Assembly: GCA_022711335.1 (NCBI GenBank)
Contig: JAKLFF010000001.1
Span: forward strand, 40,260-104,259
Direction: 5' to 3'
DNA from: Patescibacteria group bacterium
GTDB taxonomy: Bacteria > Patescibacteriota > Minisyncoccia > Moranbacterales > UBA2206
DNA: 64,000 nt
Numbering within the stretch: position 1 is the stretch's first letter; each line of letters opens with the position of its first letter. The notes under the pieces are model-generated. The model saw only the letters and a list, made by a program, of their open reading frames with translations. It did not search any database and was not told the DNA's origin. This document shows positions 1 to 57,071 of the stretch, in pieces. The position numbers and the translations under genes are program-made.

Positions 1-755
1 AACCAGGCATTTGGTCGGCTTGCGTATCTTCGCAAATTGGCTGTCCGATGGGTTGCCAATTTTGCGCAACAGGCAAAGGCGGATTTGTGAGAAATTTAAC
101 TTCCGAAGAAATAATCGATCAGATTTTGTTTTGGAAGCAGCATCTCAAGAAAAATAAAATCAGCGGCATTTTTTCCAATATCGTTTTTATGGGAATGGGA
201 GAGCCATTTCTCAATTGGAAAGAGGTATCCAAAAGCATAAAAGATTTGACTGATCCGAAATTATTCGGTTTTGGATCAAGAAGCATATCTGTCTCAACGG
301 TTGGCATTCGGGAAGGAATTGAAAAAATAGCCAAGGAATTTCCCCAGGTGAATCTGGCCATTTCTTTGCATTTCGGAAATAACAAAAAAAGATCAGAATA
401 TATGCCAATTAACAAAGACTATGATTTAAATAACATTAAAAATTCCATTTCCTGTTATTTTCAAAAAACCAGGAGGAAGATTTTTTTGGAATATATCATG
501 CTTGCGGATATTAATGACAGTCAGAAAGACGCGGATGACTTGATTAAGTTTATAAGGTCCATAGATGATAATTATCTTTTGCATCTGAATCTTATTAAAT
601 ATAACGAAACTTCCGGAAAATTTGTTCCTTCAACCGGAACGAAAATGAATGAATTTAAAAATTATCTTGTTTCTAGAGAAATAAGCGTCACAATAAGAAA
701 AAGCCTTGGAGAAGATATCCAAGGCGCATGCGGGCAGCTGGCTGGCAAAAATTAA
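1..755 (+). CDS. rlmN: Radical-SAM rRNA/tRNA adenine-C2 methyltransferase RlmN, 5-prime truncated at window edge
   Basis: The frame stays open back to position 1. It reads PGIWSACVSSQIGCPMGCQFCATG, which is the RlmN CxxxCxxC cluster motif. The C-terminus ...DIQGACGQLAG matches the RlmN terminal motif. Confidence 0.8.
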   Translation, partial: PGIWSACVSSQIGCPMGCQFCATGKGGFVRNLTSEEIIDQILFWKQHLKKNKISGIFSNIVFMGMGEPFLNWKEVSKSIKDLTDPKLFGFGSRSISVSTVGIREGIEKIAKEFPQVNLAISLHFGNNKKRSEYMPINKDYDLNNIKNSISCYFQKTRRKIFLEYIMLADINDSQKDADDLIKFIRSIDDNYLLHLNLIKYNETSGKFVPSTGTKMNEFKNYLVSREISVTIRKSLGEDIQGACGQLAGKN

Positions 756-2422
756 ATATTTTTTACCATATAAGTATCTTCCAGTCTATATTCCAGCTTT
801 TTATAGTATCCCCGGACTCCAACACCTGAAATAACGGCGATTTTTTTTATTCCGAAATCTTGTTTGGCAATTCTTTCAGCTTCGGCAATAAGTTTCTTTC
901 CAAGTCCGATATGCTGGGGAGATTTATTGTCCTTTCTGCTTATCTCGGTCATTTTTCCATAAGTATGCACCTCGCGGATGATAGCGGAATTCCTTAATAT
1001 TGGCATATAATCATACAATTTGTCATTCCCGACTTGACCGGGAATCCAGTTTTTAATTTTTATTTGTTTGGCTAGATTCCCGCTTTCGCGAGAATGACAA
1101 ATAAAGGGAACTCTTAATCGCAACAATGCGAATAATTTTTTCTTGTCTTTTGACACGAATTGCAAAAATATTTCTTTTCCGCCTGATGCGTTATAATCAA
1201 TCCGATCGAGAATTATTTTTTCATTTATTTTATAATCCAGCTTTACTTCCCGGCATCGGATGCATTGGCAGTTTGATCTGGGAATAATCAGCTGGCGCAG
1301 ATTGGATAATTTCGGTCCAGCAATAATTGAAGTGGAGGGAACATCGCGGACCAGGCGGGAAATCCGGACGTAGGGCGGAATGATTTTGTTTTTTATTTCC
1401 AAAACCAGTTTTTCAAACTGCTTATCGCTCATCGGATTGTATTTTCCTTGTTTCCAAGCTTTGTATAAATCGCTGTTTTTCACAACAACAGTCGGATAAA
1501 TTTTGAGCATATCCGGACGAAAATCGGGATTGGAAAATAATTTTTGAAACATTTCCAAATCTCTCTTGGAATTTGATCCGGGAAGTCCGGGCATAATGTG
1601 ATAATTTATTTTGAATCCGGCGTCTTTAAGAAGTTTAGAGGCTTCTATAGTGGCTTCTACATTATGTCCGCGGCTATTAATTTTTAAAATATCATCAAAA
1701 ATATTTTGCACGCCCAGTTCAACTCTCGTGCAGCCCAAATTTCTAAAATTAATTATTTCTTTTTCCGAAATATAATCCGGCCGCGTTTCCAGTGTCAGCC
1801 CAATAATCCTATGCCTAGCCTTTTCATTTTTTCTTTGCTCGATTAGCAATAAATTTTTTGTTACATGTTTCGTGTTATATGTTTTATGTTTTGTGTATTC
1901 ATTGCAGGCGCGGAAACATTCAGTGATGAACCAGCGCTGATATTTTTTGGGAAGATAGGAAAAAGTTCCGCCCATGACGATCAATTCGATTTTGTCAGTT
2001 TTGTGCCCGTTAAGTTCGAGTGATCGAAGCCGGTTTTGCACTTGGGCGTATGGATTAAATTTTGAGAAAATGGCGCGCATAACGGCCGGTTCATTGGAAA
2101 GATAGCTTTTGGGCATTTTGGGTTCAGTCGGGCAATAAAGGCATTTTCCAGGGCAAGGAAATGGCTTTGTAAGGACGGCGACAACGGCTACCCCAGACTG
2201 AGTGCGGATGCTTCGGCTCATCATAACCTTTTCGAGATTGGCGCTTGGTTTGATTTCTTTTTTTTCTATCAGTTTGTTATAAATTTCCCGTAGATCTGCA
2301 TTAGTCGGCAGGGGAAGTCTCAACTTTTTGCAGAGGTCTTTTTTGATTTGCGAAAAATCTTCGGAATTTTTAACATTCCTTTTTATTGCTAATTTTATGA
2401 AGTTGTCATAAGCTGGATTCAT
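752..2422 (-). CDS. elp3: Elp3-like protein: N-terminal radical-SAM domain plus C-terminal GNAT acetyltransferase domain. Carries an in-frame repeat-element insertion.
   Basis: The radical-SAM motif is PFPCPGKCLYCP (CxxxxCxxC). The GNAT tail HIGLGKKLIAEAERIAKQDFGIKKIAVISGVGVRGYYKKLEY is typical of Elp3. The 556 aa ORF reads through repeat copy 1 at 1021..1099. Confidence 0.85.
   Translation of the reverse strand: MNPAYDNFIKLAIKRNVKNSEDFSQIKKDLCKKLRLPLPTNADLREIYNKLIEKKEIKPSANLEKVMMSRSIRTQSGVAVVAVLTKPFPCPGKCLYCPTEPKMPKSYLSNEPAVMRAIFSKFNPYAQVQNRLRSLELNGHKTDKIELIVMGGTFSYLPKKYQRWFITECFRACNEYTKHKTYNTKHVTKNLLLIEQRKNEKARHRIIGLTLETRPDYISEKEIINFRNLGCTRVELGVQNIFDDILKINSRGHNVEATIEASKLLKDAGFKINYHIMPGLPGSNSKRDLEMFQKLFSNPDFRPDMLKIYPTVVVKNSDLYKAWKQGKYNPMSDKQFEKLVLEIKNKIIPPYVRISRLVRDVPSTSIIAGPKLSNLRQLIIPRSNCQCIRCREVKLDYKINEKIILDRIDYNASGGKEIFLQFVSKDKKKLFALLRLRVPFICHSRESGNLAKQIKIKNWIPGQVGNDKLYDYMPILRNSAIIREVHTYGKMTEISRKDNKSPQHIGLGKKLIAEAERIAKQDFGIKKIAVISGVGVRGYYKKLEYRLEDTYMVKNI
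1021..1099. mobile_element. MITE-like double-hairpin element, copy 1, in-frame inside elp3
   Basis: The sequence is tgtcattcccgacttgaccgggaatccag, then a 28 bp AT spacer, then ctagattcccgctttcgcgagaatgaca. The ends are inverted repeats, and each arm contains its own mini-palindrome. Confidence 0.9.
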
Positions 2423-2434
2423 ATGGATTTATTT

Positions 2435-2512
2435 TGTCATTCCGGGCTTGACCCGGAATCTAGTCGATAAATTAGTTAATTTAACTGGATTCCCGCTTTC
2501 GCGGGAATGACA
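2435..2512. mobile_element. MITE-like double-hairpin element, copy 2, intergenic between elp3 start and the methyltransferase gene
   Basis: The sequence is tgtcattccgggcttgacccggaatctag, a spacer, then ctggattcccgctttcgcgggaatgaca. It has the same TIRs as copy 1. Confidence 0.9.
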
Positions 2513-2528: not shown

Positions 2529-3182
2529 ATGGGCAAGAAGGAAACTGAAGAAATATTTAAGCAATTAGAATCTGGCTACGACGAGATGGCGGGGAAGTTT
2601 TCCGAAACCCGGAAGTTTTTTTGGCGCGATTTGGAATTTATCGCTGATTATATTAAAAATGACGATAAAATTTTGGATTATGGATGTGGAAATGGCAGAC
2701 TCCTGGAAATACTGAATGATAAGGAAATTAATTATACGGGTGTTGATATTTCGGGAGAATTGATAAAATTGGCTAAGCGAAAGTATAAAGGCAAAAATAT
2801 AAAATTCCAAAAAATATCCAGTCAGAGCAGTCTACCATTTCCTGATAATTATTTCAATGTCTTCATATCTATTGCAGTATTTCATCATTTTCCTCAGAAA
2901 TATGCGGAGGTTATGGCGGAAGAATTATTCCGCGTGATTAAGACCGGCGGAAAAGTCATAGTTACCGTTTGGAATCTGGAGCAAGAAAAATACAAAAAAT
3001 ATTTTTTAAAAAGCCAGGAAGGTTACATTCCATTCAAAGATAATTATGGAAATGTTTTTAATCGCTACCATTGCCTTTATACAAAAAAAGGCCTTGAAGA
3101 ACTATTTCTCAAGGCAGGATTTAAGATTGAAAAATCCGAAGTTATTAGGGGAAAAAATATAATACTGATCGGAAAAAAATAG
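2529..3182 (+). CDS. Class I SAM-dependent methyltransferase
   Basis: The glycine-rich SAM-binding motif LDYGCGNGRLLE is present. The layout is Methyltransf_11/25-like. Confidence 0.7.
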   Translation: MGKKETEEIFKQLESGYDEMAGKFSETRKFFWRDLEFIADYIKNDDKILDYGCGNGRLLEILNDKEINYTGVDISGELIKLAKRKYKGKNIKFQKISSQSSLPFPDNYFNVFISIAVFHHFPQKYAEVMAEELFRVIKTGGKVIVTVWNLEQEKYKKYFLKSQEGYIPFKDNYGNVFNRYHCLYTKKGLEELFLKAGFKIEKSEVIRGKNIILIGKK

Positions 3183-4234: not shown

Positions 4235-4261
4235 AAAAATAAAAAATCCGAAGCACGAAAT

Positions 4262-4384
4262 CAGAAATTCGAAACAAATTCAAAATATTAAATTTGAAAT
4301 GGCTAAAACTGTTTTGAATTTTAAACATTTGAATTTGTATATTGTTTCGAATTTCGATATTCGAATTTCGAGTTTGATTAATTT
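4262..4384. repeat. AT-rich heptameric GAATTTN/TTCGAAA repeat array in the parA-parB spacer
   Basis: attcgaaacaaattcaaaatattaaatttgaaat...gtttcgaatttcgatattcgaatttcgag. The same motif family recurs at 6977..7105 and 21968..22105. Confidence 0.6.
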
Positions 4385-6966: not shown

Positions 6967-6976
6967 GAGTTTATTA

Positions 6977-7105
6977 TGAATTTAGAATTTAGAATTTCGA
7001 ATTTTGAATTGGAATCTGGAATATTGAATTTCGAGGTAATCTCGGCTGTTTTTTATTTTAAATTCTTAATTCCCATTCTAAATTCCAACTTCACAATTCA
7101 AAATT
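6977..7105. repeat. Inverted arrays of heptameric GAATTTN repeats flanking a ~60 bp core, intergenic between topA 3-prime end and rel 5-prime end
   Basis: The left arm is gaatttagaatttagaatttcgaattttgaattggaat. The right arm is ttctaaattccaacttcacaattcaaaattc, the reverse orientation. Confidence 0.6.
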
Positions 7106-10528: not shown

Positions 10529-10592
10529 ATTATCCCATTATGTGTTAGTATTTTGAATCACGAAACGCACAATAATAAAGGGAAATTTAAAT

Positions 10593-13136: not shown

Positions 13137-15143
13137 ATGTCAATCAATTTTTTTGCCAAAACCAATTTCAGAAACCAGGAAAGGATTTTCGGAATCAAAG
13201 AAGACGATCGCCGCCGCCATATGTATGTGATTGGAAAAACTGGAATGGGAAAATCCAATTTATTGGAAAATATGGCAATCCAGGATATACGGGCGGGAAA
13301 AGGCGTCTGCGTAGTTGATCCTCACGGGGAATTTGCGGAAAAAATGATGCGGGCGATTCCGGCAGATCGGATAAACGACGTTGTTTATTTTAATCCGGCT
13401 GATCGCGAATTTCCGGTGGCTTTCAATATTTTGGAAGCGGTGGACGAGGACAAAAAAAACCTGATTGCGAGCGGAATGATGGGAGTTTTCAAGAAAATCT
13501 GGCCGGATGTTTGGAGCCCTAGAATGGAATATATTCTCAACAACATGATTTTGGCGCTTCTTGATTATCCCGGATCAACGATGCTTGGAGTAAACCGGAT
13601 GATGTTCGATAAGGATTTCAGAAAACGTGTTTATCCGAAAATAAAAGATCCAGTCGTGAAATCTTTTTGGATCAATGAATTCGATCAGTGGGATGACAAA
13701 TTCCGAAAGGAAGCCGTAGCGGCTATTCAAAACAAAGTTGGGCAGTTCCTTTCTTCTTCCGTGATCCGCCACATTGTCGGCCAGCCGAAATCAACGATTG
13801 ACATGCGGGAAATTATGGACAATGAAAAAATTCTCATTGTTAATGTTTCAAAAGGCCGGATCGGGGAGGATGCCATGCGCCTTTTGGGAGGAATGATCGT
13901 GACAAAGATCCAACTGGCGGCGATGGGAAGAGTGGAAGTTCCGGAGGAGCAAAGGAAAGACTTCTATCTTTATGTCGATGAATTCCAAAATTTTGCCACG
14001 GAATCTTTTGCCAATATTTTGTCTGAAGCCAGAAAATACAAGCTTTGCCTTGTTTTAGCCCATCAATACATAAATCAGCTGATTTTTGACGGAAATTCCA
14101 CTGTTCGGGACGCGATATTTGGAAATGTCGGAACCATAGTGGCTTTTCGGGTTGGAGCGGAAGATGCGGAGCATCTGGAAAAGGAATTTGAGCCGGTTTT
14201 TATGATGAACGATTTGGTGAATCTCAATAAATATAATATTTATCTGAAGTTGATGATTGATGGAATTGCCGGGGATGCTTTTTCGGCTGCCTCCCTTCCT
14301 CCCATGGATATAGCTGATACGGCTGAAAATGAAGAGAAAGCCGTCCGGGTTTCGAGGGAAAGGTATGGAAAATCAAGGACGGAAATAGAGGAGAAAATTG
14401 CCCGCTGGAGCGGAATAATGGATATGGATGAGCCGAAAAAAAATAATGTTTTGCCCAGTAGCGGCCTAAATGGAGATAGGAGAAGCGATCAGTCTGCCAG
14501 ACGGGGAAATTTTAATAATTTTTCGCGCAGCCAAAATCAGAAGAGAATCTACGGCCGTGATGCTAACAAGCCCAAAAGTGTTTTTCAAATGCCGGTTTTG
14601 AAAAAAAAAGAAGAAATAAAAACAGTTAGGCTGTCTGAATCTGTTAATTTTCCTGAAAAAAGTATTTCCGAAAGCAAAAAAGGTGCAGGAAAAGTGGTTG
14701 AAAAAAACAAAAAAATACCGGAACAAAAAAATGATTTGCAAGAAAGTGTCGATATGTATGAGGCGGTCTGCAGTACGTGCGAAGAAAAAATTCAGGTTCC
14801 ATTCAAGCCTGATCCAAACCGGCCGACTTTTTGCAAAGAGTGTTTGAAGGATTATCAGAGATCGAGAGCCAGGGTGCAAAAGGAAAAAGAAGACGCAGTT
14901 TCATATAGAAGGAAAGAAGGAGGGGGCGATATTCGGAACGAAAAAAACCAACCGGAATTTCCAGAAAAAAAGCATTCACAGCCGGCTGCCTATGTCTCAA
15001 ATGAAAAGCCGATGAGTCTTTCCCAGATGTCCTATATTGCTCCAAAAAAATTCAAGCCGCAAAGAAAGCGGCCGGAAGTCAATTTGAATGAGGTGAGAAA
15101 GCTTATAAACAAAAGTTTAAACGGAAAAAATGCCAAAAATTAG
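13137..15143 (+). CDS. FtsK/HerA/TraD-superfamily P-loop ATPase (DUF87/AAA_10-like) with C-terminal zinc ribbon and basic tail
   Basis: Walker A is MYVIGKTGMGKSN followed by VVDPHGEF. Walker B is FYLYVDEFQNFA. The sensor is RKYKLCLVLAHQYINQL. The C-terminal zinc ribbon is CSTCEEKIQVPFKPDPNRPTFCKEC. Confidence 0.7.
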   Translation: MSINFFAKTNFRNQERIFGIKEDDRRRHMYVIGKTGMGKSNLLENMAIQDIRAGKGVCVVDPHGEFAEKMMRAIPADRINDVVYFNPADREFPVAFNILEAVDEDKKNLIASGMMGVFKKIWPDVWSPRMEYILNNMILALLDYPGSTMLGVNRMMFDKDFRKRVYPKIKDPVVKSFWINEFDQWDDKFRKEAVAAIQNKVGQFLSSSVIRHIVGQPKSTIDMREIMDNEKILIVNVSKGRIGEDAMRLLGGMIVTKIQLAAMGRVEVPEEQRKDFYLYVDEFQNFATESFANILSEARKYKLCLVLAHQYINQLIFDGNSTVRDAIFGNVGTIVAFRVGAEDAEHLEKEFEPVFMMNDLVNLNKYNIYLKLMIDGIAGDAFSAASLPPMDIADTAENEEKAVRVSRERYGKSRTEIEEKIARWSGIMDMDEPKKNNVLPSSGLNGDRRSDQSARRGNFNNFSRSQNQKRIYGRDANKPKSVFQMPVLKKKEEIKTVRLSESVNFPEKSISESKKGAGKVVEKNKKIPEQKNDLQESVDMYEAVCSTCEEKIQVPFKPDPNRPTFCKECLKDYQRSRARVQKEKEDAVSYRRKEGGGDIRNEKNQPEFPEKKHSQPAAYVSNEKPMSLSQMSYIAPKKFKPQRKRPEVNLNEVRKLINKSLNGKNAKN

Positions 15144-20700: not shown

Positions 20701-21969
20701 ATGGGAATTTTTTCAAAAATTTTAGGTTTCGGAAACATTTCACAGGATTTTTTGCTTTCTTTGGATATAGGGACGGAAGTGGTAAAAGCACTAGTTTTTA
20801 AAATCAATAAAGAAAGCGGATTAGGGATAGTAAAAGGAGTTGGAAGATCAAGGCAAGGGCTTAAAGATATGCATAGCGGAGCTGTTTCTGATATAAAGGG
20901 AGTTATTGATAATTCAAAAAAAGCGATTGAAATGGCCAAAAACATGGCCGGAGCCAGAAAGATAGAAAAAGCTGTCATTGGAATTGCCGGAGAGCTGGTA
21001 AAAGGAACAACTACTACTGTTCATTATGAAAGAATTCGCCCGGAAATTCGAATTGATCTTCCGGAACTCAAAAACATTATTCAAAAAGTCCAATGGAAAG
21101 CCTTTGACCGCATCAGGCAGCAGCTGGCCTGGGAAACGGGACACAGCGAAATTGAAGTGAAGCTGATAAACGCGGCGATTGTGGATGTTCGGATCGATGG
21201 ATACAAGGTGACCAACCCAATCGGTTTTCAGGGACGCGACGTATCTATCGCTGTTTTTAATGCATATGCCCCGATGATTCATTTAGGGGCGCTTCAGGCT
21301 ATTGCGGATGAATTGAAACTGGAGCTGCTAAATGTTGCGGCTGAACCTTACGCTGTGGCCAAATCTATGGGACTTGACGATATAACTGACTTTAATGCGA
21401 TTTTTATTGATATAGGAGGAGGAACGACCGACATCGCGGTAGTGAGAAACGGCGGACTGGAAGGAACAAAAATGTTTGCTTTAGGAGGCAGGGCTTTTAC
21501 AAAAAGACTAGCGCATGAACTGGGCGTGGGATTTGAAGAAGCGGAGGTTTTGAAAATAAGGTATTCTGAAGGAAAATTAGGGCGGGACGTCAGTATGAAA
21601 GTAGAAAGGATATTGGAAGACGATTGCAATGTTTGGCTTTCCGGCATTGAACTTTCTCTTTCTGAGTTTGCTTCAAGCGATCTTCTTCCTCATAGATTTT
21701 TCCTTTGCGGCGGAGGTTCTGGCCTTCCGGGAATAAAAAAGGCGCTTGTATCTTCTGGATGGACGGGAAATCTTCCCTTTGCCAGAATTCCGGAAGTTAG
21801 TTTTTTGCAGCCTAAAGACGTGGTTAATATAAAAGATGAAACAGGCGAGCTTCGCGATCCGCAAGATATAACGCCAATGGGATTGGCCAATCTGGCCTTA
21901 GATCTGGTTGGCGAAGAAAAAGTTATGGCCGGAATCTTAAGAAGAGCGGTAAAAATGATACAAAAATAG
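20701..21969 (+). CDS. Actin-fold ATPase of the FtsA/PilM family (FtsA-like)
   Basis: Phosphate-1 is LSLDIGTEVVKALVF. Phosphate-2/adenosine is IFIDIGGGTTDIAVV...FALGGRAF. The length of 422 aa fits FtsA, but no ftsZ lies downstream. Confidence 0.6.
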   Translation: MGIFSKILGFGNISQDFLLSLDIGTEVVKALVFKINKESGLGIVKGVGRSRQGLKDMHSGAVSDIKGVIDNSKKAIEMAKNMAGARKIEKAVIGIAGELVKGTTTTVHYERIRPEIRIDLPELKNIIQKVQWKAFDRIRQQLAWETGHSEIEVKLINAAIVDVRIDGYKVTNPIGFQGRDVSIAVFNAYAPMIHLGALQAIADELKLELLNVAAEPYAVAKSMGLDDITDFNAIFIDIGGGTTDIAVVRNGGLEGTKMFALGGRAFTKRLAHELGVGFEEAEVLKIRYSEGKLGRDVSMKVERILEDDCNVWLSGIELSLSEFASSDLLPHRFFLCGGGSGLPGIKKALVSSGWTGNLPFARIPEVSFLQPKDVVNIKDETGELRDPQDITPMGLANLALDLVGEEKVMAGILRRAVKMIQK

Positions 21970-22105
21970 AATTTTGAATTTGGAATTTTGAATTTGGAAT
22001 TAAAATGCAAAAAATAAAAAATACATAAATTATCATAGTGCCAATTTATTTTTTGGGCTTATATTTATTCTAAATTCTAAATACTAAATTCTAAATTTCA
22101 ATTTT
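21968..22105. repeat. Inverted arrays of heptameric GAATTT(N)/GGAATTT repeats in the intergenic region
   Basis: The left arm is gaattttgaatttggaattttgaatttggaatt. The right arm is ttctaaattctaaatactaaattctaaatttc. The architecture matches 6977..7105. Confidence 0.6.
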
Positions 22106-24115
22106 ATGCACCAGACATTCTATATCGATATAGATGAAGAAATCACTTCTATAGTCGAAAAATTGAGAAATTCAAAATCAGGAGAAGTTGTGCTCGTTGT
22201 TCCCAAGAGAGCGTTGCTTATCCAGAGCATCGTCAATCTTCGGCTTCTCAAAAAAGAAGCCGACTCGCTGAATGTTTCCTTGAGTATTGTTACTCAAGAC
22301 AATTTGGGGAAGGTTTTAGTTGAAAAAGCAGGCATATTTTACCAAGAAAGCCTGAAGGAAACAGAAAATGATGAGATAATAAGAAGTGAAAGCAGAATTG
22401 GCGAAAGCTATTTTGACAATCGCGACTATTCGAAAATAGGGGACAATCTTCATTCAGAGGAAGAAAAAATGGGAAAAATAGGTTCCGACAGTTATTTTGA
22501 CAGGAGCAGCAATCTTTCTTCTGAAATGGACAAGGATAAAAAAGCTGTTTTTAGAAACGTTTCTCCGGAACAGCCTTCCTCTTCCAGCCAGCCAAGTAGT
22601 GAGAAAATTTTAAATAAAGAATTGGTTTTGGGATTTGGAAATAATGCCAATTTAAAAAAAGGAGCTGTCAGCATAGACTCCTCGCTGTCTTCTTATCAAA
22701 TGCATCCAAGTCAAGCAGGTTTGCCGCAAGCGCCTGTGCAGGCGGCCAGAAATAATCCCCCGTCTGTTTCTAGGCCTTCCGAATTATTTCCTCGACCAAT
22801 AGAAGGCGTACGGGGAAATGCTTATGCTGGCCGGTCGGGAGACAGAAAAATAGATAATTTTTTCCAACATGGAAATTATTCTGTTCCGGCAGAAGAAAGC
22901 AAAAACGGTTTCAAGAACGCCAGCCTTTCTAAGAAAACATTTAAAGTTTTTTGGATTTTCGGGCTGATTCTTATTTTGCTTGTTTTGGCAGCGGCTGCTT
23001 ATTTCATAGTGCCCAAAGCAGATGTTGTCATTACTGCGAAGGGGACTCAAAAGGCTCAGGAAGCAGAAGTGAAAGCTGACGCTAAAATTGAAACAGTGAA
23101 TTATGAGGAAAAAGTTATTCCAGCAGAGGCAGTTTCAACTGTTGTAACGGCTTCGAAAAGCGTAATTCCCAGTGGAAACAAAGGGGCATCGAGTGGAAAA
23201 AAGGCCAGAGGGACGATCACTATATATAATGAGTTTAGTTCAGCCAGCCAGTCTCTTGTAGCGACGACGCGCTTTCAATCGGAAGATGGAAAAATATTCA
23301 GGCTGGAAAAGGGGGTTACTGTTCCTGGAACGTCAAAAGAAGGCGGGGAAACTAAAGCCGGAACAATCGAAGTGGAAGTAGCGGCAGATGAATCCGGAGA
23401 ATCCTATAATATCAGCCCTTCAAAATTTACTATTCCTGGATTTAAAGATAGCGGAAACGGAAAATACGAAAAGATTTACGCCAAATCAGAAAAAGCGATG
23501 TCTGGCGGAGGAAGCGAAAATAGCTCTTCGGAGGGAGGAAATAAAAAAATAACGGAAGCGGATATAGCCGGAGCAAAAAGCAAAATTTTATCGGATCTTC
23601 AAACCCAGGTAAGGAATAAAATCGAAGAATCGGCTGGAGAGGGAATGGTCGTTTTGGATGATGCCATCAATAGCGAGGAAGCGGTTTATACTCTTTCAAA
23701 TTCAGCTGGAGAAGCAGTCGAAAAATTCGAAATCAAAGCGCAAATGAAAGTAAACGCGCTGGTTTTCAAAAAATCTGACTTGGAAAATGTCGTAGGAAAA
23801 ATTGCCGCTAATTCAGGAAACGGAAAAACTAGCCTGGAAGGAAGTTCAATGGATATTTCTTATGGCAAGGCAGATGTTGATTTTAAGGCCGAAACTGTTC
23901 TAATTAAAGCAATCGGAACGATTAAAAACGGCTCAGACATTGATTTGGAAAATATCAAGAAGGAAATTTTAGGAAAAACAAATGAAGAATTGGAAACATA
24001 TTTGGGTGCTTATCCGAACATAGAAAAAGTGGATGTAACCTATTGGCCGCCGTTTCTAAATGGAAAAATTCCCCTTTATGAGAAACGGGTCAATGTGGCG
24101 GTAGAAGTCGAATAA
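22106..24115 (+). CDS. Hypothetical bitopic membrane protein (cytoplasmic N-domain, Ser/Pro-rich linker, single TM, large extracytoplasmic domain)
   Basis: 669 aa with the TM segment FWIFGLILILLVLAAAAYFIV near residue 290. I recognise no family motif. Confidence 0.55.
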   Translation: MHQTFYIDIDEEITSIVEKLRNSKSGEVVLVVPKRALLIQSIVNLRLLKKEADSLNVSLSIVTQDNLGKVLVEKAGIFYQESLKETENDEIIRSESRIGESYFDNRDYSKIGDNLHSEEEKMGKIGSDSYFDRSSNLSSEMDKDKKAVFRNVSPEQPSSSSQPSSEKILNKELVLGFGNNANLKKGAVSIDSSLSSYQMHPSQAGLPQAPVQAARNNPPSVSRPSELFPRPIEGVRGNAYAGRSGDRKIDNFFQHGNYSVPAEESKNGFKNASLSKKTFKVFWIFGLILILLVLAAAAYFIVPKADVVITAKGTQKAQEAEVKADAKIETVNYEEKVIPAEAVSTVVTASKSVIPSGNKGASSGKKARGTITIYNEFSSASQSLVATTRFQSEDGKIFRLEKGVTVPGTSKEGGETKAGTIEVEVAADESGESYNISPSKFTIPGFKDSGNGKYEKIYAKSEKAMSGGGSENSSSEGGNKKITEADIAGAKSKILSDLQTQVRNKIEESAGEGMVVLDDAINSEEAVYTLSNSAGEAVEKFEIKAQMKVNALVFKKSDLENVVGKIAANSGNGKTSLEGSSMDISYGKADVDFKAETVLIKAIGTIKNGSDIDLENIKKEILGKTNEELETYLGAYPNIEKVDVTYWPPFLNGKIPLYEKRVNVAVEVE

Positions 24116-29582: not shown

Positions 29583-30674
29583 ATGCTTTATATACTAATC
29601 GGAGTGTTAATATTCGTCAGCGCCTCTTTGGCTTGGCTTGTTTTTGATATGAAAAGAAAAATGGATGGCGGGGAAAAGGGAGAGAAAATAGTTGCAGTTT
29701 TTGAACAGCTGAAAATGTTGACAAACCAGAATGACAATTTGCGGCGCGACATCGATAGTAAGCTTTCTGAAACTCACAGGGCGACTAATGAACAGATCAG
29801 CCGGACCATTCAAACTGTTCAGGGAATTACCGGCCAGTCAGCCAAGCAGATTGCTGATGTGGTTTCCGGACTTACGAAACTCGAAGAAACGAATAAGCAG
29901 GTAATTAATTTCTCGGCGCAGCTTCAAAATCTGCAGGATATCTTGAAAAATCCCAAGCAAAGAGGCGTTCTGGGGGAATATTATCTCAAGGAAATTTTGG
30001 AAAATGTGCTTCCGCCGAACGCGTTTCAGATGCAATACGGGTTTGGAAACGGCGATATTGTCGATGCTGTCGTTTTTGTCAAGAAAAAAATCATTCCTAT
30101 CGATTCGAAATTTTCATTGGAAAATTATGAAAGAATAATAAATTGCAAAGGCAAGGAGGAAAGAGATAAATATGAAAAAGCTTTTAAGCAGGATCTTAAG
30201 AATCGGATAGACGAAACTTCCAAATACATAAAGCCGGAGGAGGGAACAATGGACTTTGCTTTTATGTTTATTCCGTCGGAAGCCATATATTACGACCTTC
30301 TTATCAACAAAGTTGGAGCAGTACAGGTAAATACTACCGATCTGATAAAATATGCGACAAGGGATAAGAAGGTGATAATTGTTTCACCGACCTCTTTTCA
30401 CGCCTATCTGCAGACAGTGCTTCAAGGGCTCCGCGCGCTTCAAATCGAGGAAAGCGCCAAGCAAATTAGAAATAACGTCGAAAAATTAGGGAAGCATATC
30501 GTGAGCTACGAGGAATATATGAAAAAATTGGGAAATAGCATGGGAACAAGCATCGGCCATTTTAATGCCGCATACAAGGAGCTGGGGAAAATCGACAAAG
30601 ATGTGATAAAAGTTACTGAAGGGAAAAAAAGCATTGAACCGATTGCTTTGGAAAAGCCGAATTTTGACATATAA
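29583..30674 (+). CDS. rmuC: DNA recombination protein RmuC
   Basis: It has an N-terminal TM and a coiled coil. The conserved RmuC core is KQRGVLGEYYLKEILENVLP...IVDAVVFVKKKIIPIDSKF. Confidence 0.75.
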   Translation: MLYILIGVLIFVSASLAWLVFDMKRKMDGGEKGEKIVAVFEQLKMLTNQNDNLRRDIDSKLSETHRATNEQISRTIQTVQGITGQSAKQIADVVSGLTKLEETNKQVINFSAQLQNLQDILKNPKQRGVLGEYYLKEILENVLPPNAFQMQYGFGNGDIVDAVVFVKKKIIPIDSKFSLENYERIINCKGKEERDKYEKAFKQDLKNRIDETSKYIKPEEGTMDFAFMFIPSEAIYYDLLINKVGAVQVNTTDLIKYATRDKKVIIVSPTSFHAYLQTVLQGLRALQIEESAKQIRNNVEKLGKHIVSYEEYMKKLGNSMGTSIGHFNAAYKELGKIDKDVIKVTEGKKSIEPIALEKPNFDI

Positions 30675-41782: not shown

Positions 41783-42655
41783 ATGACTAAAATTAAAAAA
41801 GCTATTCTTCCAGTTGCGGGTTTTGGAACCCGGTTCTTGCCGGCGACTAAAGCCCAGCCGAAAGAAATGCTTCCGGTCGTTGACAAGCCAGCTATTCAAT
41901 ATTTGGTCGAAGAAGCAGCGGCAGCTGGAATTGAAGAAATTGTTTTTGTAACCGGTCGCGGAAAAAGAGCTATTGAAGATCATTTTGACTATTCATACGA
42001 GCTTGATCATACGCTAGTTGAAAAAAATAAGCACGATTTGGTCAAAAAAGTGAGGGAAGTTGAAGATTTGGCAAAATTTTCATATGTTCGACAACCCGTT
42101 CCTCTGGGAGACGGCCATGCTGTTCTTTGCGCTCGGCATATTGTTGGAGATGAGCCTGTGCTTGTGATGTTCGGCGATAGTTTATATGACAGCGAAGTTC
42201 CCGCTGCAAAACAACTTATTGATGTATATGAAAAATATAATGATGTCGTGGTTGGTTTGTCCGAAGTAAAACCAGACGAGGTTGAAAGATTTGGCGTTAT
42301 AGACGGAATTGATATCGGAAATGGAATCTATGAGATTAAAAAATTTGTCGAGAAGCCCAAAAAAGAAGAAGCGCCAAGCAATTTAGTGGCGGTTGGAAAA
42401 TATATAATAACTCCCGAAATTTTTGAGCTGTTGTCGACAATGAAAGGCGGAAAATCGGGAGAAATAAGGCTGGCTGACGCTTTTGATCTGATGTTGCAGA
42501 AAAACAGGCCGATTTACGGAAAAAAACTGGATGGCGAATGGCTGGATACGGGCGAAAAGCTTACTTTTATCACAACAACCATAAAGCTTGGTATAAAGCA
42601 TCCTGAAATAGGAGAAAAACTAAAAAGATTTATTAAAGAACTTGATATAAAATGA
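41783..42655 (+). CDS. galU: UTP--glucose-1-phosphate uridylyltransferase
   Basis: KAILPVAGFGTRFLPATKAQPKEMLPVVDKPAIQYLVEEA. Confidence 0.85.
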   Translation: MTKIKKAILPVAGFGTRFLPATKAQPKEMLPVVDKPAIQYLVEEAAAAGIEEIVFVTGRGKRAIEDHFDYSYELDHTLVEKNKHDLVKKVREVEDLAKFSYVRQPVPLGDGHAVLCARHIVGDEPVLVMFGDSLYDSEVPAAKQLIDVYEKYNDVVVGLSEVKPDEVERFGVIDGIDIGNGIYEIKKFVEKPKKEEAPSNLVAVGKYIITPEIFELLSTMKGGKSGEIRLADAFDLMLQKNRPIYGKKLDGEWLDTGEKLTFITTTIKLGIKHPEIGEKLKRFIKELDIK

Positions 42656-43923
42656 AAATTGCCATTCAAGCGGCGGATTTGGACAGCCAGCGGATTGATG
42701 GAACGCGGGTTTATATTTTGAATGTTCTAAAATACTTTGGAAAGCTCGATGAATCCAGTGATTTTTTGGTTTATCATAAAAAGAATTTCAATTCGGAACT
42801 CGAGCCGCCGGAATTTCCAAACTACAAAATAATTCAAAAAAATTCAGCTTGTATCTGGACGCAGACCAGATTTGCCTGGGAAATTTGGAAAGACAAGCCG
42901 GATGTCCTCTGGATGCCGATGCAGGCGCTTCCAATTATACGAAGGAAAAATCTTAAAACCGTGATAACTGTCCACGATCTGGCTTTCAAAATTTTTCCGA
43001 ATCAATTTACAAGAAATGATTTAAGGCGACTAAATTTTTATGCCGATTACGCTATAAAAAATTCTTCAAAAATAATCGCTGTTTCGGAGTCGACAAAAAA
43101 AGATATTTTAAAGTTTTATCCTGAAATAAAAGAAGATAAAATCAAAGTTATTTATCATGGGTTCGATGAAGGAGTTTTTGGTAAAAGATATGATAATAGT
43201 GAGATACTGGATATTTTGGAGAAATATAATATTATCAATAAAGTTCAAAGTTCAAAGTTCAAAGTTCAAAGCTACAGTTCAAAACTAAAAGTTACTTTTA
43301 AATACCTGCTATATGTCGGAGCTTTACAGCCAAGGAAAAATTTGATTTTATTGGTTAAGGCATTCGAAAGACTAAAAGAAAAATATTGTCATTCCGGCCA
43401 ACGAGCCGGAATCCAGTCTGGAAACAAAGATAATGCACTAGATTCCCGCTTTCGCGGGAATGACAAAAACGCCGGTGATTTTAGCAATTTGAAATTAGTT
43501 TTGGTTGGGAAACCAGCCTGGATGGCGGAAGAAATTTTAGAAAGAATAAAAAAATCAGAATTTGCAAACGATATAATTTTAGCCGGCCAAGTTGGCTTTG
43601 GTGATCTTGGTAAAATTTATCAAGGCGCCAGCGCTTTTGTGTTTCCCTCGCTTTATGAAGGCTTCGGGATTCCGATTTTGGAAGCTTTTGCGTCGGGAGT
43701 GTCGGTGATTTGCGCCAACAATTCTTCTCTTCCGGAAGTAGCCGGAGAAGCGGCGCTTTATTTCAAAAATAATAATCCTCAAGATTTAGCCATACAAATT
43801 GAAAAAATATTATTAAGCGAAGAATTTAAAAAAGACCTTGTTTCAAAAGGCCTCTTGCAGCTTCGAAAATTTTCTTGGGAAAAATGCGCCCGGGAAACTT
43901 TAAGTTATCTCAAATCAGGCTAA
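42652..43923 (+). CDS. Family-4 (GT-B) glycosyltransferase carrying a 7-bp tandem repeat and an in-frame MITE-like insertion in the interdomain region
   Basis: The C-terminal GT4 core is LLYVGALQPRKNL...FVFPSLYEGFGIPILEAFASGVSVICAN. Confidence 0.75.
   Translation: MKIAIQAADLDSQRIDGTRVYILNVLKYFGKLDESSDFLVYHKKNFNSELEPPEFPNYKIIQKNSACIWTQTRFAWEIWKDKPDVLWMPMQALPIIRRKNLKTVITVHDLAFKIFPNQFTRNDLRRLNFYADYAIKNSSKIIAVSESTKKDILKFYPEIKEDKIKVIYHGFDEGVFGKRYDNSEILDILEKYNIINKVQSSKFKVQSYSSKLKVTFKYLLYVGALQPRKNLILLVKAFERLKEKYCHSGQRAGIQSGNKDNALDSRFRGNDKNAGDFSNLKLVLVGKPAWMAEEILERIKKSEFANDIILAGQVGFGDLGKIYQGASAFVFPSLYEGFGIPILEAFASGVSVICANNSSLPEVAGEAALYFKNNNPQDLAIQIEKILLSEEFKKDLVSKGLLQLRKFSWEKCARETLSYLKSG
43241..43271 (+). 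repeat. Heptanucleotide tandem repeat (AAGTTCA)x4.4 inside the GT4 coding sequence
   Basis: aagttca aagttca aagttca aagttca aag. It translates as KVQSSKFKVQS. Confidence 0.85.
43387..43465. mobile_element. MITE-like double-hairpin element, copy 3, in-frame inside the GT4 gene
   Basis: tgtcattccggccaacgagccggaatccag, a spacer, then ctagattcccgctttcgcgggaatgaca. The encoded peptide is CHSGQRAGIQSGNKDNALDSRFRGNDK. Confidence 0.9.
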
Positions 43924-55472: not shown

Positions 55473-57071
55473 ATGAATTTTTCTAATAATATGCCCGCCA
55501 AAGGCGAGTCCGCCTTTGGCGGAAAAATCTCTATATCATATCCGCCGTTAGAATCAAAAAAAGGCATTGCTTGCCTGGCGCAAAACCGCCAGTTCCAGTG
55601 GTTCAGCCATCCGACTTACATCTATCCGGTTATTCCGGCTTATGCAGCCTCGTTTCTCAAGGCCAATGGATATGATGTTTTGTGGGATGATGCGATCGCG
55701 GAAGAATTGAATTATGAACAGTGGAAAGAAAGAATAGTCCGGGAAAAACCGGATATTATTGCGATTGAAACAAAGACACCGGTAGTGAAAATGCATTGGA
55801 AAATTATTGATGAAATAAAAAGAGAATTGCCTGATTCCAAGGTGGTATTGATGGGAGATCATGTGACGGCGCTGCCCAAAGAATCTTTGGAAAATTCCAA
55901 AGTTGATTATGTGATCGCCAGCGGGGATTATGATTTTGCGCTTTTAAATCTAGCCAATCATCTGTCAAAAGGCGAAGCGCTGGAGGGGGGCTTTTGGTAT
56001 CGGAAAAATTGTCATTCTCGCGAAAGCGGGAATCTAGAGGCAGGCAGTAAAGACTGGATCTCCGCTTTCGCGGGGATGACAGAAAAAGAATATAAAGAAT
56101 CAGAAATAACCACCACTGGGCCGGCAGATATTTCAAAAAATAATTTAGATACTCTGCCGCTTATCGACAGAAAGCTCACGAAGTGGAAAATGTATGGATA
56201 TAAAAATGGAAATTTCAAATATACGCCTGGCGCTTACATGATGAGCGGGCGCGATTGCTGGTGGGGAAAATGCACTTTCTGTTCCTGGACAACTATGTTT
56301 CCGGGAGAGAAATTTCGAACGATGTCGGCTGAAAAAGCGCTCAGCGAAGTGGAAAATCTGATTAAACTGGGTGTTAGAGAAATTATGGAAGATAGCGGTT
56401 CGCTTCCGGTTGGGCAGTGGCTCAAAGATTTTTGCCGTGGAATGATAGAACGGGGATATAACAAAAAAATAACGATGAGCTGCAATATGAGGATTACCGG
56501 CATAAAAGATCTTGAAACATGGGAGCTTATGAAAAAAGCCGGCTTCCGGTTTATTCTTTTCGGACTGGAATCAGCCAATCAGGAAACGCTTGACCGAGTT
56601 TGCAAAAATCTCGAGGTTTCAGAAATTGAACCAGGTCTCAAACTGTGTAAAGAAGGCGGGCTCGAACCTCATATCACTGCTATGATCGGCTACCCGTGGG
56701 AAACAAAGGAAATGGCTCAAAAAACGATAAGCTTGGCGAAAAAATTGTTCAAATGCGGATATGTAGACACGCTTCAGGGAACAATCGTGATTCCTTATCC
56801 GGGAACGCCTTTATATAAATACTGCGCTGAAAACAATTTGCTTCTAACCAAAAATTACGAAGATTATGATCAGCGCCAGATGGTTATGAAATCGCCACTG
56901 GCTTCCGAAGATGCCAAAGGACTGGTGCAGGGACTGTATAAGTCTTTTATGAGCCCCCAGTTTATCTGGCGAAAAATAAAATCCATAAGAAATATGGATG
57001 ATATAAAATTCTTTTTTATGGCTGGCTGGAAATGGATGGGGAAGATGATGGATTTTGGAAACAAAAAATAG
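55473..57071 (+). CDS. B12-binding-domain radical-SAM protein with in-frame MITE-like insertion
   Basis: It has an N-terminal B12-binding-like domain. The radical-SAM cluster motif is RDCWWGKCTFCSW. The ORF reads through repeat copy 4. Confidence 0.8.
   Translation: MNFSNNMPAKGESAFGGKISISYPPLESKKGIACLAQNRQFQWFSHPTYIYPVIPAYAASFLKANGYDVLWDDAIAEELNYEQWKERIVREKPDIIAIETKTPVVKMHWKIIDEIKRELPDSKVVLMGDHVTALPKESLENSKVDYVIASGDYDFALLNLANHLSKGEALEGGFWYRKNCHSRESGNLEAGSKDWISAFAGMTEKEYKESEITTTGPADISKNNLDTLPLIDRKLTKWKMYGYKNGNFKYTPGAYMMSGRDCWWGKCTFCSWTTMFPGEKFRTMSAEKALSEVENLIKLGVREIMEDSGSLPVGQWLKDFCRGMIERGYNKKITMSCNMRITGIKDLETWELMKKAGFRFILFGLESANQETLDRVCKNLEVSEIEPGLKLCKEGGLEPHITAMIGYPWETKEMAQKTISLAKKLFKCGYVDTLQGTIVIPYPGTPLYKYCAENNLLLTKNYEDYDQRQMVMKSPLASEDAKGLVQGLYKSFMSPQFIWRKIKSIRNMDDIKFFFMAGWKWMGKMMDFGNKK
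56010..56081. mobile_element. MITE-like double-hairpin element, copy 4, in-frame inside the radical-SAM gene
   Basis: tgtcattctcgcgaaagcgggaatctag, a spacer, then ctggatctccgctttcgcggggatgaca. The encoded peptide is CHSRESGNLEAGSKDWISAFAGMT. Confidence 0.9.

What the first reader, a model, noticed from the sequence alone, without database searches (positions are those of the whole stretch)
56010..56081. Same element inserted in-frame in a B12-binding radical-SAM gene (variant with CGCGAAAGCGG loop in both arms)
Copy 4 encodes ...RKNCHSRESGNLEAGSKDWISAFAGMTEKEYKES... It lies between the B12-binding-like N-domain and the radical-SAM CxxxxCxxC motif. Its left arm uses the CGCGAAAGCGG inner palindrome, which is the loop found in the right arm of the other copies. 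This shows arm exchange within the family. The motif CHSRESGNL is shared word-for-word with the elp3 insert, although the genes are unrelated. That is direct evidence that these peptide segments derive from the repeat, not from the host genes.
Basis: seen in the sequence. Interest (0 to 1): 0.75.

Follow-up and report, generated by a model that had tools for sequence, protein, structure and literature searches.

The report
Hairpin-repeat doublet inserted in-frame in gene
A 72-base selfish DNA palindrome, of the hairpin-repeat family best known from Neisseria (dRS3/NTS), sits in-frame inside a radical-SAM enzyme gene of a Candidatus Moranbacteria (CPR) bacterium and is read through as an unstructured 24-residue loop; it is a clear new example of a known phenomenon.

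Summary
Window 56010-56081 is a 72-nt inverted doublet (28-nt arm, 16-nt spacer, 28-nt arm) lying in frame (C180-T203) in a B12-binding/radical-SAM ORF. About 97 of 112 orthologues, including the closest ones (85-87% identical), have an 8-11-residue loop there. AlphaFold models the insert as a low-confidence tip of a beta-hairpin between the two domains. The same insert is present in independent assemblies.

Each arm matches the published Ssn-related motif (SRM). It is near-identical to the Neisseria NTS/dRS3 hairpin, the ssDNA target of the GIY-YIG nuclease SsnA. The exact 28-mer occurs in many CPR lineages and in more than 10 other phyla.

Three of the four doublets in the window are in-frame insertions: Elp3-like, GT1 and rSAM genes. 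The same rSAM loop carries at least 5 separate hairpin-repeat inserts in other orthologues.

I read it as a non-autonomous, REPIN/NIME-like hairpin doublet tolerated in a permissive loop, analogous to Rickettsia palindromic elements. No partner nuclease was found in the ~84 kb available. "Arm exchange" is not demonstrated. It is a new member of a known kind, of moderate interest.

The parts
55473..57071 (+). Host gene: B12-binding domain / radical-SAM protein (532 aa) in a glycan-biosynthesis cluster (GT2-GT2-rSAM-TPR)
   Evidence: ORF. Pfam B12-binding aa 56-152 and Radical_SAM aa 260-421. Orthologues are from Candidatus Moranbacteria/Patescibacteria and synteny is conserved.
56010..56037 (+). 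Left arm of copy 4: SRM/NTS-type hairpin TGTCATTCTCGCGAAAGCGGGAATCTAG. Encodes CHSRESGNL.
   Evidence: Matches the published SRM regex. 26 of 28 positions match the Neisseria NTS consensus. Exact reverse complement of the c1 right arm (I4).
56038..56053 (.). 16-nt variable spacer (aggcaggcagtaaaga) between the arms
   Evidence: The spacer length equals that of the doublets in L001 and L074.
56054..56081 (-). Right arm of copy 4. On the minus strand it reads TGTCATCCCCGCGAAAGCGGAGATCCAG. On the + strand it encodes DWISAFAGMT.
   Evidence: Matches the SRM regex. 24 of 28 positions match NTS, with one compensatory stem change (T7-A22 to C7-G22) and one mismatch.
56082..56096 (+). 15 further nucleotides (GAAAAAGAATATAAA, EKEYK), also absent from empty-site orthologues. 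Net gain is 87 nt, or 29 codons.
   Evidence: Comparison with the empty sites in L219 (P0002) and L004 (P0005).
1021..1099 (-). Copy 1: 79-nt doublet (CTTGA-loop arm plus GAAA-loop arm), in frame in the Elp3-like ORF 752..2422(-)
   Evidence: Against PDB 6iad the query has 35 residues (444-478) where the chain has 7.
2435..2512 (.). Copy 2: 78-nt doublet, intergenic, between the Elp3-like start (2422) and ORF 2529..3182
43387..43465 (+). Copy 3: 79-nt doublet, in frame in the GT1 glycosyltransferase ORF 42652..43923. Peptide CHSGQRAGIQSGNKDNALDSRFRGNDK.
   Evidence: The segment is absent from 7 aligned homologues, and nearly all of the 150 best representatives match in separate stretches on either side of it.

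Best explanation
SHOWN. Copy 4 is a non-autonomous, selfish hairpin-repeat element. It consists of two inverted 28-nt hairpin units of the SRM/NTS (dRS3-containing) family separated by 16 nt. This is a minimal dRS3-spacer-dRS3 unit with a REPIN-like architecture. It lies within a net 87-nt gain at the tip of a beta-hairpin between the B12-binding domain and the radical-SAM core. The closest orthologues, which group with the query in the gene tree, have an empty site. The ORF stays open through the element, which is modelled as an unstructured 24-residue loop. The element family is multi-copy in this genome: 3 of 4 doublets in the window are in-frame inside genes. The same arm sequence is spread across many phyla.

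INFERRED.
- The copy persists because it is harmless, not because it is useful. The genome is gene-dense, so most insertions hit genes. Four to five of the six reading frames of an arm have no stop codon. Only insertions that restore the frame and land in surface loops survive. This would explain why the same loop collects several different hairpin elements in other orthologues.
- The arms act at the single-stranded DNA level as recognition hairpins for a sequence-specific protein. The best candidate is an Ssn-type single-domain GIY-YIG ssDNA endonuclease, as shown for NTS/SsnA in Neisseria. The GTC 5' of the palindrome is needed for cleavage there and the C 3' of it for binding, and both are conserved in all 8 arms.
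- An inverted doublet presents the oriented motif on both strands.

Whether that protein also copies the element, as RAYT is thought to copy REPINs, or only cuts incoming ssDNA, as in Neisseria transformation, is not known.
For: Insertion.
- Loop census: 97 of 112 orthologues have 8-11 residues where the query has 38.
- Empty sites at DNA level in L219 and L004.
- The query groups with 8 empty-site orthologues in 180 of 200 bootstraps.

Tolerated loop. AlphaFold2 gives mean pLDDT 84.3 and pTM 0.86, but residues 183-197 fall below 50, between strands 174-177 and 212-214.

Family.
- 6 of 8 arms match the SRM regex, against 0.11 expected.
- The right arms of c2 and c3 match NTS at 27 of 28 positions. 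NTS and SRM definitions and the SsnA biochemistry come from PMC11893778.
- Inner stems covary (CCGCG/CGCGG, CTGCG/CGCAG, CGGCG/CGCCG, CCAAC/GTTGG). Mean stem length is 2.8 against 0.56 in shuffles.
- Strong ssDNA hairpins, z = -4.5 to -7.3.

Spread.
- The exact 28-mer occurs in 119+ loci from CPR lineages and more than 10 other phyla.
- Ssn-type GIY-YIG genes are present in six non-CPR loci fetched with the arm pattern (L023, L036, L055, L057, L105, L112) and one viral contig (L007); SRM hits lie within 700 bp of the gene in the six checked.

Other in-frame copies. Elp3-like, GT1, and a Parcubacteria ORF in L024.

Recurrent use of the same loop. L001/L002, L220, L221 and L222.

Precedent for in-frame palindromic elements. 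RPEs (PMC10969869).
Against: No Ssn-type or any other GIY-YIG gene, RAYT or transposase was found in the window plus about 20 kb of flanks.

None of the 19 CPR loci carrying the arm has an Ssn-type gene. No CPR organism appears among the named best hits of an Ssn-type profile search.

The small GIY-YIG family that is common in CPR has a different cognate repeat and no SRM in 259 kb of flanks.

There is no consistent target-site duplication, so the insertion chemistry is unknown.

c4 and the inserts of the non-sister clade P0003/P0006 sit within one codon of each other. They share a 16-nt spacer (10 of 16 identical) and the C7/G22 right-arm variant. I cannot distinguish independent insertion, lateral transfer by recombination, and ancient gain with repeated exact loss.

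Translation of the insert is inferred from the intact ORF, not observed.
Confidence: 0.75

Rival explanations
1. The insertion-bearing allele reached this lineage by homologous recombination with DNA taken up from a related Moranbacteria lineage that already carried it, rather than by de novo insertion of the element here. This changes the route of arrival, not the nature of the element.
For: The same site (within one codon), a 16-nt spacer with 10 of 16 identities, and the unusual ATCCCC...GGGGAT right arm are shared with L001 and L002, which are not sister to the query. The window encodes DprA. In Neisseria, dRS3/NIME arrays mark recombination end points (PMC1797815).
Against: A sliding-window comparison shows no local rise in nucleotide identity to L001 or L002 next to the insert. 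The element differs from theirs about as much as the rest of the gene does (about 73%). The 3' flanks differ: 15 extra nt here, and a 12-nt palindromic duplication there.
Confidence: 0.2
2. It is a REP doublet (REPIN) mobilised by a RAYT, an IS200/IS605-like tyrosine transposase.
For: The architecture is the same: two inverted hairpin repeats with a short spacer, no target-site duplication, multi-copy. The Ssn paper itself draws the analogy.
Against: The arms match the SRM/NTS consensus. They do not show the conserved GTAG-type 5' head that defines REPs; that defining feature is from my own knowledge and was not checked in a source here. No Y1 transposase was found in the window or its flanks. 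In other phyla the gene found near the same arm is a GIY-YIG gene.
Confidence: 0.08
3. It is a classical MITE, an internally deleted IS mobilised in trans by a DDE transposase that recognises TTGTCAT...ATGACAA as terminal inverted repeats.
For: Terminal inverted repeats, small size, A/T-rich flanks, several copies.
Against: No consistent target-site duplication at 4 window copies and 4 other copies. Each 'TIR' is a self-contained hairpin that also occurs alone (L133 19674; L220). The interior varies while the hairpin is kept. No transposase was found nearby.
Confidence: 0.07
4. The segment is a native, functional linker of the enzyme (for example extra Cys/His ligands) that other lineages lost.
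For: The ORF is intact and the insert is fixed in all assemblies of this species. It begins with Cys-His.
Against: 97 of 112 orthologues, including distant ones at 63-67% identity, have the short loop, so the short loop is ancestral. The same nucleotide element occurs intergenically and in unrelated genes. pLDDT is below 50. The DNA is a near-perfect palindrome.
Confidence: 0.02

Closest known systems
Neisseria NTS / dRS3 hairpin repeats and Ssn-related motifs (SRM), targets of the GIY-YIG ssDNA endonuclease SsnA (PMC11893778); NIME units dRS3-RS-dRS3 (PMC1797815)
   Same: Sequence: c2 and c3 right arms equal NTS at 27 of 28 positions, and both c4 arms match the SRM consensus. Hairpin with conserved oriented flanks (GTC 5', C 3'). 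Multi-copy. Pairs of hairpins bracketing a short variable segment. Extremely wide phylogenetic spread.
   Different: The host is a CPR bacterium with a small, low-G+C genome and few copies (about 5 in about 84 kb). Copies are isolated doublets, not arrays. Three of four lie inside genes and are translated. No Ssn gene was found in the sequence available. The effect on transformation is unknown.
Rickettsia palindromic elements (RPE) (reviewed in PMC10969869)
   Same: Palindromic repeats inserted in frame into unrelated housekeeping genes. They add a peptide at positions compatible with the fold. The host is a reduced-genome bacterium.
   Different: RPEs are about 100-150 bp and belong to their own sequence families. 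Here the elements are 72-79 nt with SRM/NTS-type arms. Any relationship to RPE families was not tested. A Rickettsia endosymbiont does carry 119-134-nt doublets with exactly these arms (L043).
REP / REPIN elements and RAYT transposases
   Same: Inverted doublet of hairpin repeats as the apparent unit. Action presumed on single-stranded DNA. No target-site duplication.
   Different: Different consensus sequence. The associated gene in other phyla is a GIY-YIG nuclease, not a Y1 transposase. REPs are almost always extragenic.

Membership tests
SRM / NTS (Ssn-related hairpin repeats) | Matches the degenerate SRM search sequence HGTCWYN(0-2)YYVSBRHN(0-5)WNVSBRGN(0-2)RNCYNB | tested here: met
   Both arms of c4 and 6 of 8 arms in the window match; 0.11 expected in shuffles. 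The definition is from PMC11893778.
SRM / NTS (Ssn-related hairpin repeats) | Canonical NTS CGTCATTCCCGCGMAVGCGGGAATCYRG with at most 1 mismatch (the paper's criterion) | tested here: inconclusive
   c2 and c3 right arms match 27 of 28 (met). The c4 left arm matches 26 of 28 and the right arm 24 of 28 (not met at 1 mismatch). dRS3 ATTCCCN8GGGAAT is exact only in c2 and c3.
SRM / NTS (Ssn-related hairpin repeats) | Hairpin with conserved oriented flanks: GTC upstream (needed for cleavage) and C after the palindrome (needed for binding) | tested here: met
   All 8 arms start TGTCAT and end ..ATC. Inner stems covary.
SRM / NTS (Ssn-related hairpin repeats) | A cd10448-type single-domain GIY-YIG (Ssn) gene in the same genome, typically flanked by the repeats | tested here: inconclusive
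   None in the window plus about 20 kb of flanks, or in 19 CPR loci. Present in 6 non-CPR loci fetched with the arm. The complete genome could not be read.
SRM / NTS (Ssn-related hairpin repeats) | Bound and cleaved as ssDNA by the cognate nuclease | not testable with these tools
   Needs biochemistry.
RPE-like in-frame palindromic elements | Repeat inserted in frame in unrelated protein genes, absent from orthologues | tested here: met
   rSAM, Elp3-like, GT1.
RPE-like in-frame palindromic elements | Insertion at a surface position compatible with the fold | tested here: met
   Residues 183-197 have pLDDT below 50 at a beta-hairpin tip in an otherwise confident model.
RPE-like in-frame palindromic elements | Sequence membership in one of the described RPE families (about 100-150 bp) | not tested
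   No RPE consensus sequences were available. The size here is 72-79 nt.
REP/REPIN-RAYT | Inverted doublet of hairpin repeats | tested here: met
REP/REPIN-RAYT | Associated RAYT (IS200/IS605-like Y1 transposase) gene | tested here: inconclusive
   None in the roughly 84 kb examined. The whole genome was not available.
Classical MITE | Target-site duplication flanking the TIRs, and a parent IS with the same TIRs | tested here: not met
   No consistent direct repeats at 8 inspected copies. No parent IS was seen.

The most novel reading that the evidence does not exclude
SRM/NTS-type doublets may be active ssDNA-level elements in CPR bacteria, which are thought to depend on DNA uptake. Under this reading they have a still unidentified partner nuclease and a real target preference for particular coding loops. 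The same beta-hairpin tip of this rSAM was hit at least 5 times, by at least 2 repeat families. The elements would then systematically remodel surface-glycan biosynthesis proteins, mark recombination or ssDNA-restriction points inside genes, and move between phyla together with their nuclease.
Probability: 0.2. Interest if true: 0.75.

Novelty: new member of a known kind. Interest (0 to 1): 0.5.

Why it matters
It links three things that had been described separately:
- the Neisseria dRS3/NTS hairpin and its newly found ssDNA nuclease family (Ssn);
- the REPIN-style doublet architecture;
- the Rickettsia-style in-frame insertion of palindromes into proteins.

It places all three in a candidate-phyla-radiation bacterium.

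Practically, peptides such as CHSRESGNL, DSRFRGNDK and WIPAFAGMT in CPR proteins are repeat-derived. They should be masked in homology searches, domain calling and structure prediction.

Biologically, the recurrent occupation of one loop by different hairpin elements gives a natural test bed. It can help separate target preference from selective filtering. It can also be used to look for the protein that recognises these hairpins in CPR.

Tried and rejected
- Rfam. The gathering scan of the whole window found only a tRNA. The E-value scan of the element gave only generic miRNA-like hairpin hits far below threshold.
- Regex and HMM search for GIY-YIG in the window: nothing.
- The small GIY-YIG gene 3.2 kb upstream of the rSAM orthologue in L001 was followed up as a possible partner: 952 homologues and 80 metagenome loci. 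It has its own inverted repeat (ACCCCCACACCAA) and there is no SRM in 259 kb, so I rejected it as the partner. That repeat is absent from the window.
- Ssn-type profile search for CPR members. The named best hits are Planctomycetaceae, Nitrosomonas, Desulfococcus, Nitrospirae, Leptolyngbya and Methylotenera, with no CPR. This is inconclusive.
- Supplementary tables of the Ssn paper are not held.
- Peptide-string literature search: no hits. CPR-plus-MITE literature search: nothing relevant. The Coxiella QMITE paper showed no evident relation.
- Target-site duplication. A-rich near-repeats flank c4 (GAAAAA) and the L001 copy (AATTC), but nothing is consistent across copies.
- Recombination-tract test by sliding identity: no signal.
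- PDB search for GT1 did not cover the insert region, so I replaced it with the representative search.
Full report
**1. What is there**

Window 56010-56081 reads TGTCATTCTCGCGAAAGCGGGAATCTAG-aggcaggcagtaaaga-CTGGATCTCCGCTTTCGCGGGGATGACA. It is 72 nt, or 24 codons, inside ORF 55473..57071(+), and it encodes C180-T203, CHSRESGNLEAGSKDWISAFAGMT. Pfam places a B12-binding domain at aa 56-152 and Radical_SAM at aa 260-421.

As single-stranded DNA the segment folds into a long hairpin: -22.6 kcal/mol, z = -7.3, and none of 200 shuffles folds as well.

The window holds four such elements:
- c1, 1021-1099
- c2, 2435-2512
- c3, 43387-43465
- c4, 56010-56081

Each element has two 28-30-nt arms that begin TGTCAT and end GGAATCYAG. 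They are in inverted orientation around a 16-22-nt variable spacer, and each arm is itself a hairpin. In c1-c3 the left arm has a CTTGA/CAACGA-type loop and the right arm has CGCGAAAGCGG. In c4 both arms have CGCGAAAGCGG. The c4 left arm is a 29/29 exact reverse complement of the c1 right arm (I4).

The motif is far above chance. CGCGAAAGCGGG gives 5 hits against 0.44 expected.

**2. It is an insertion**

The 120 best homologues are Candidatus Moranbacteria/Patescibacteria proteins at 63-86% identity, in conserved synteny GT2-GT2-rSAM-TPR.

In 97 of 112 orthologues the segment between GGFWY and NSGP is 8-11 residues long. In the query it is 38.

The closest relatives have empty sites at the DNA level. 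L219 (P0002) reads TGG TAT CGC GAT GAT AAC GGG GAA ATA AAA AAT TCA GGA, and L004 (P0005) is similar. The net gain in the window is 87 nt: the 72-nt doublet plus 15 nt, GAAAAAGAATATAAA.

The same sequence is present in contigs from independent samples (L136, L137), so it is not an assembly artefact.

An AlphaFold2 model built with 57 orthologues is confident overall (mean pLDDT 84.3, pTM 0.86). It drops below 50 for residues 183-197, between strands 174-177 and 212-214. The insert is the unstructured tip of a beta-hairpin.

**3. The other copies**

- c1 lies in an Elp3-like gene. Against the M. infernus Elp3 structure (6iad) the query has 35 residues (444-478, containing FICHSRESGNLAKQIKIKNWIPGQVGNDK) where the chain has 7.
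- c3 lies in a GT1 glycosyltransferase. Nearly all of the 150 best representatives match in separate stretches, about 1-243 and about 275-422. In an alignment with 7 homologues the peptide CHSGQRAGIQSGNKDNALDSRFRGNDKNAGDF is absent.
- c2 is intergenic.

So three of four doublets are translated insertions in unrelated genes, and all are read in the frame that makes TGT CAT into Cys-His.

Reading the arm sequence directly, four to five of its six frames lack stop codons. In a gene-dense genome this makes in-frame survivors expected.

**4. What family it belongs to**

The arms match a published family. Chenal et al. 2025 (PMC11893778) define two motifs:
- the Neisseria Transformation Sequence, CGTCATTCCCGCGMAVGCGGGAATCYRG, which contains dRS3 (ATTCCCN8GGGAAT);
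- a degenerate Ssn-related motif (SRM).

They show that SsnA, a 94-aa single-domain GIY-YIG protein (cd10448), binds and cuts NTS only as ssDNA, a few nucleotides 5' of the motif. [quoted passage not shown]

In the window, 6 of 8 arms match the SRM expression, against 0.11 in shuffles. The right arms of c2 and c3 equal NTS at 27 of 28 positions. The c4 arms match at 26 of 28 and 24 of 28, the latter with one compensatory stem change. All eight arms keep the 5' GTC and the 3' C.

The hits cover:
- many CPR lineages: Moranii-, Falkow-, Pacei-, Parcu-, Sacchari-, Uhr-, Wolfe-, Doudna-, Magasanik-, Jackson- and Sungiibacteria;
- Alpha-, Beta-, Gamma- and Deltaproteobacteria, Rickettsia and Tisiphia endosymbionts, Planctomycetota, Bacteroidota, Nitrospirales, Dehalococcoidia, Actinomycetes and Spirochaetes;
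- one MAG labelled Nanoarchaeota.

There were also 9 viral contigs.

Across these loci the inner stem varies with compensatory changes. Mean stem length is 2.8 against 0.56 when shuffled.

Inverted doublets are common, with 38 found. They include 72-nt ones with a 16-nt spacer like c4, for example L074 in Parcubacteria.

Ssn-type GIY-YIG genes are present in six of the non-CPR loci and in one viral contig. SRM hits lie within 700 bp of the gene in the six loci where that was counted.

Formally, each doublet is an isolated dRS3-spacer-dRS3 unit, which is the building block of neisserial NIMEs (PMC1797815). It also has the architecture of a REPIN.

**5. The partner protein is unresolved**

No GIY-YIG gene, RAYT or transposase is present in the window or in about 20 kb of flanks. 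None of the 19 CPR loci carrying the arm has an Ssn-type gene.

An 84-aa GIY-YIG gene lies 3.2 kb upstream of the rSAM orthologue in L001, and I followed it up. It is a highly conserved family with 952 homologues, and 73 of the 80 metagenome loci fetched gave a locatable gene. The gene is bracketed by its own inverted repeat, TTTACCCCCACACCAAWT...AWTTGGTGTGGGGGTRAA. There is not a single SRM in 259 kb of these loci. It is a parallel system, not the partner.

A profile of Ssn-type proteins retrieved thousands of hits, with no CPR organism among the named ones. That result is inconclusive.

**6. One loop, many insertions**

In other orthologues the same beta-hairpin tip carries the following:
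- a related doublet in L001/L002, with a nested extra hairpin in L002;
- a single arm replacing the loop in L220, with similar CHSRE-type peptides in P0032, P0057, P0112;
- a different SRM doublet with a 3-nt spacer in L221, with similar peptides in P0041 and P0055;
- an unrelated hairpin element (TTTACCCGGTTAAA...ATTTAACGGGGTGAAA) two codons downstream in L222, with a similar peptide in P0100;
- further unclassified inserts in P0075, P0105 and P0119.

A bootstrapped NJ tree without the insert columns gives three results:
- the query groups with eight empty-site orthologues in 180 of 200 replicates;
- P0003 and P0006 form their own clade in 186 of 200;
- query + P0003 + P0006 never form a clade.

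Yet c4 and the L001/L002 elements share the spacer length (10 of 16 identical) and the unusual ATCCCC/GGGGAT right arm. Independent insertion of one subfamily, lateral transfer by recombination, and ancient gain with exact losses therefore cannot be separated. A sliding-window identity test shows no recombination tract.

**7. Interpretation**

Shown:
- a multi-copy SRM/NTS-type hairpin doublet;
- an in-frame insertion absent from close orthologues;
- a position in a disordered loop;
- the same family inserted in other genes and spread across phyla.

Inferred:
- It is selfish or neutral DNA that survives where frame and fold allow. This mirrors Rickettsia palindromic elements (PMC10969869).
- Its arms act as ssDNA recognition hairpins for an Ssn-like nuclease.
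- The inverted doublet presents the oriented motif on both strands.

How copies are made is unknown. There is no target-site duplication, so a classical MITE origin is unlikely.

Homotypic doublets are simply another common arrangement of independent hairpin units.

**8. Verdict**

The finding is real and correctly read in its essentials. It belongs to a known repeat family and a known phenomenon. It sits in a new host group and in a coding context that I did not find described in the Ssn paper or in my literature searches. It is a new member of a known kind, of moderate interest. The recurrent targeting of one loop and the missing partner nuclease are the open points worth pursuing.

Noticed in passing
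L001 6428-6754; L139-L218 (metagenome loci): A highly conserved 84-aa single-domain GIY-YIG family: 952 homologues at E<=1e-5, the 120 best listed 70-83% identical to the seed. It occurs in CPR, Omnitrophica and even a Bathyarchaeia MAG, mostly on short contigs. The gene is bracketed by its own inverted repeat, TTTACCCCCACACCAAWT...gene...AWTTGGTGTGGGGGTRAA (k-mer present in 62 of 73 upstream and 59 of 73 downstream flanks). Gene-less mini-hairpins of the same repeat lie nearby (L146, L150). This looks like a second nuclease-plus-cognate-hairpin system, parallel to NTS-ssnA-NTS.
   Followed up: partly
window 55495-55522: A perfect 12-bp-stem hairpin, CCGCCAAAGGCG-AGTC-CGCCTTTGGCGG, lies inside the 5' end of the same rSAM ORF. 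It gives an N-terminal extension, MNFSNNMPAKGESAFGG, before the conserved start (most orthologues begin MKISISYPP). The same hairpin is at the same place in L002 and L220 but not in L001, L004, L219, L221 or L222.
   Followed up: partly
window 43243-43280 (also 4244-4368, 6973-7112, 21963-22107): The GT1 gene has a second in-frame insert, NKVQSSKFKVQSYSSKLKVTF, absent from homologues. It is made of GTTCAAA heptamer repeats. Related A/T-rich GAATTTnGAATTT-type arrays occur in intergenic regions of the window.
   Followed up: no
L001 about 10565-10600; L002 about 10680-10715 (3' flank of the insert): Immediately after the doublet in P0003/P0006 there is a 13-bp perfect palindrome, ACAAATTCAGAAA...TTTCTGAATTTGT. 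It spans the element end and native codons and adds 4 residues (V/T-SEF). It looks like a fold-back duplication scar of the insertion event.
   Followed up: no
L222 3001-4518 (P0042); P0100, P0033: Other hairpin-repeat families are inserted in frame in rSAM orthologues. TTTACCCGGTTAAA...ATTTAACGGGGTGAAA gives the peptide YPVKS...FNGV; P0100 has a similar NPVKS...FNRV peptide. A separate insert, HLTPNPSPCQGEGS, lies a few residues upstream in P0033.
   Followed up: partly
L043 (Rickettsia endosymbiont of Polydrusus tereticollis) 592-723, 1642-1769, 4390-4507, 5736-5852: Four 119-134-nt doublets lie within 8 kb; three of them carry exact NTS-type arms as terminal inverted repeats, and inner small hairpins were seen in the one copy inspected. 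The size is in the range of Rickettsia palindromic elements. A link between RPE families and SRM/NTS hairpins seems worth testing.
   Followed up: no
L026 (MAG labelled Nanoarchaeota); L005-L013 (IMG/VR viral contigs): The exact 26-28-nt arm also occurs in an archaeal-labelled MAG and in 9 viral contigs. One of these (L007) carries an Ssn-type GIY-YIG gene next to the arms. This is compatible with phage-borne spread, or with mis-binning.
   Followed up: no
L133 19674-19705 (about 8 kb left of the window start): A further solo CTTGA-type arm, TTGTCATTCCGCACTTGATGCGGAATCCATTG, lies intergenic between the leucyl-tRNA synthetase and DUF4349 genes of the same genome.
   Followed up: no
window 9413-10492, 13137-15143, 29583-30674: The window encodes DprA (DNA-processing protein for transformation), a TrwB/TraG-like coupling ATPase with a zinc finger, and RmuC. 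This is DNA uptake and recombination machinery, which may be relevant if the hairpins act on incoming ssDNA.
   Followed up: no
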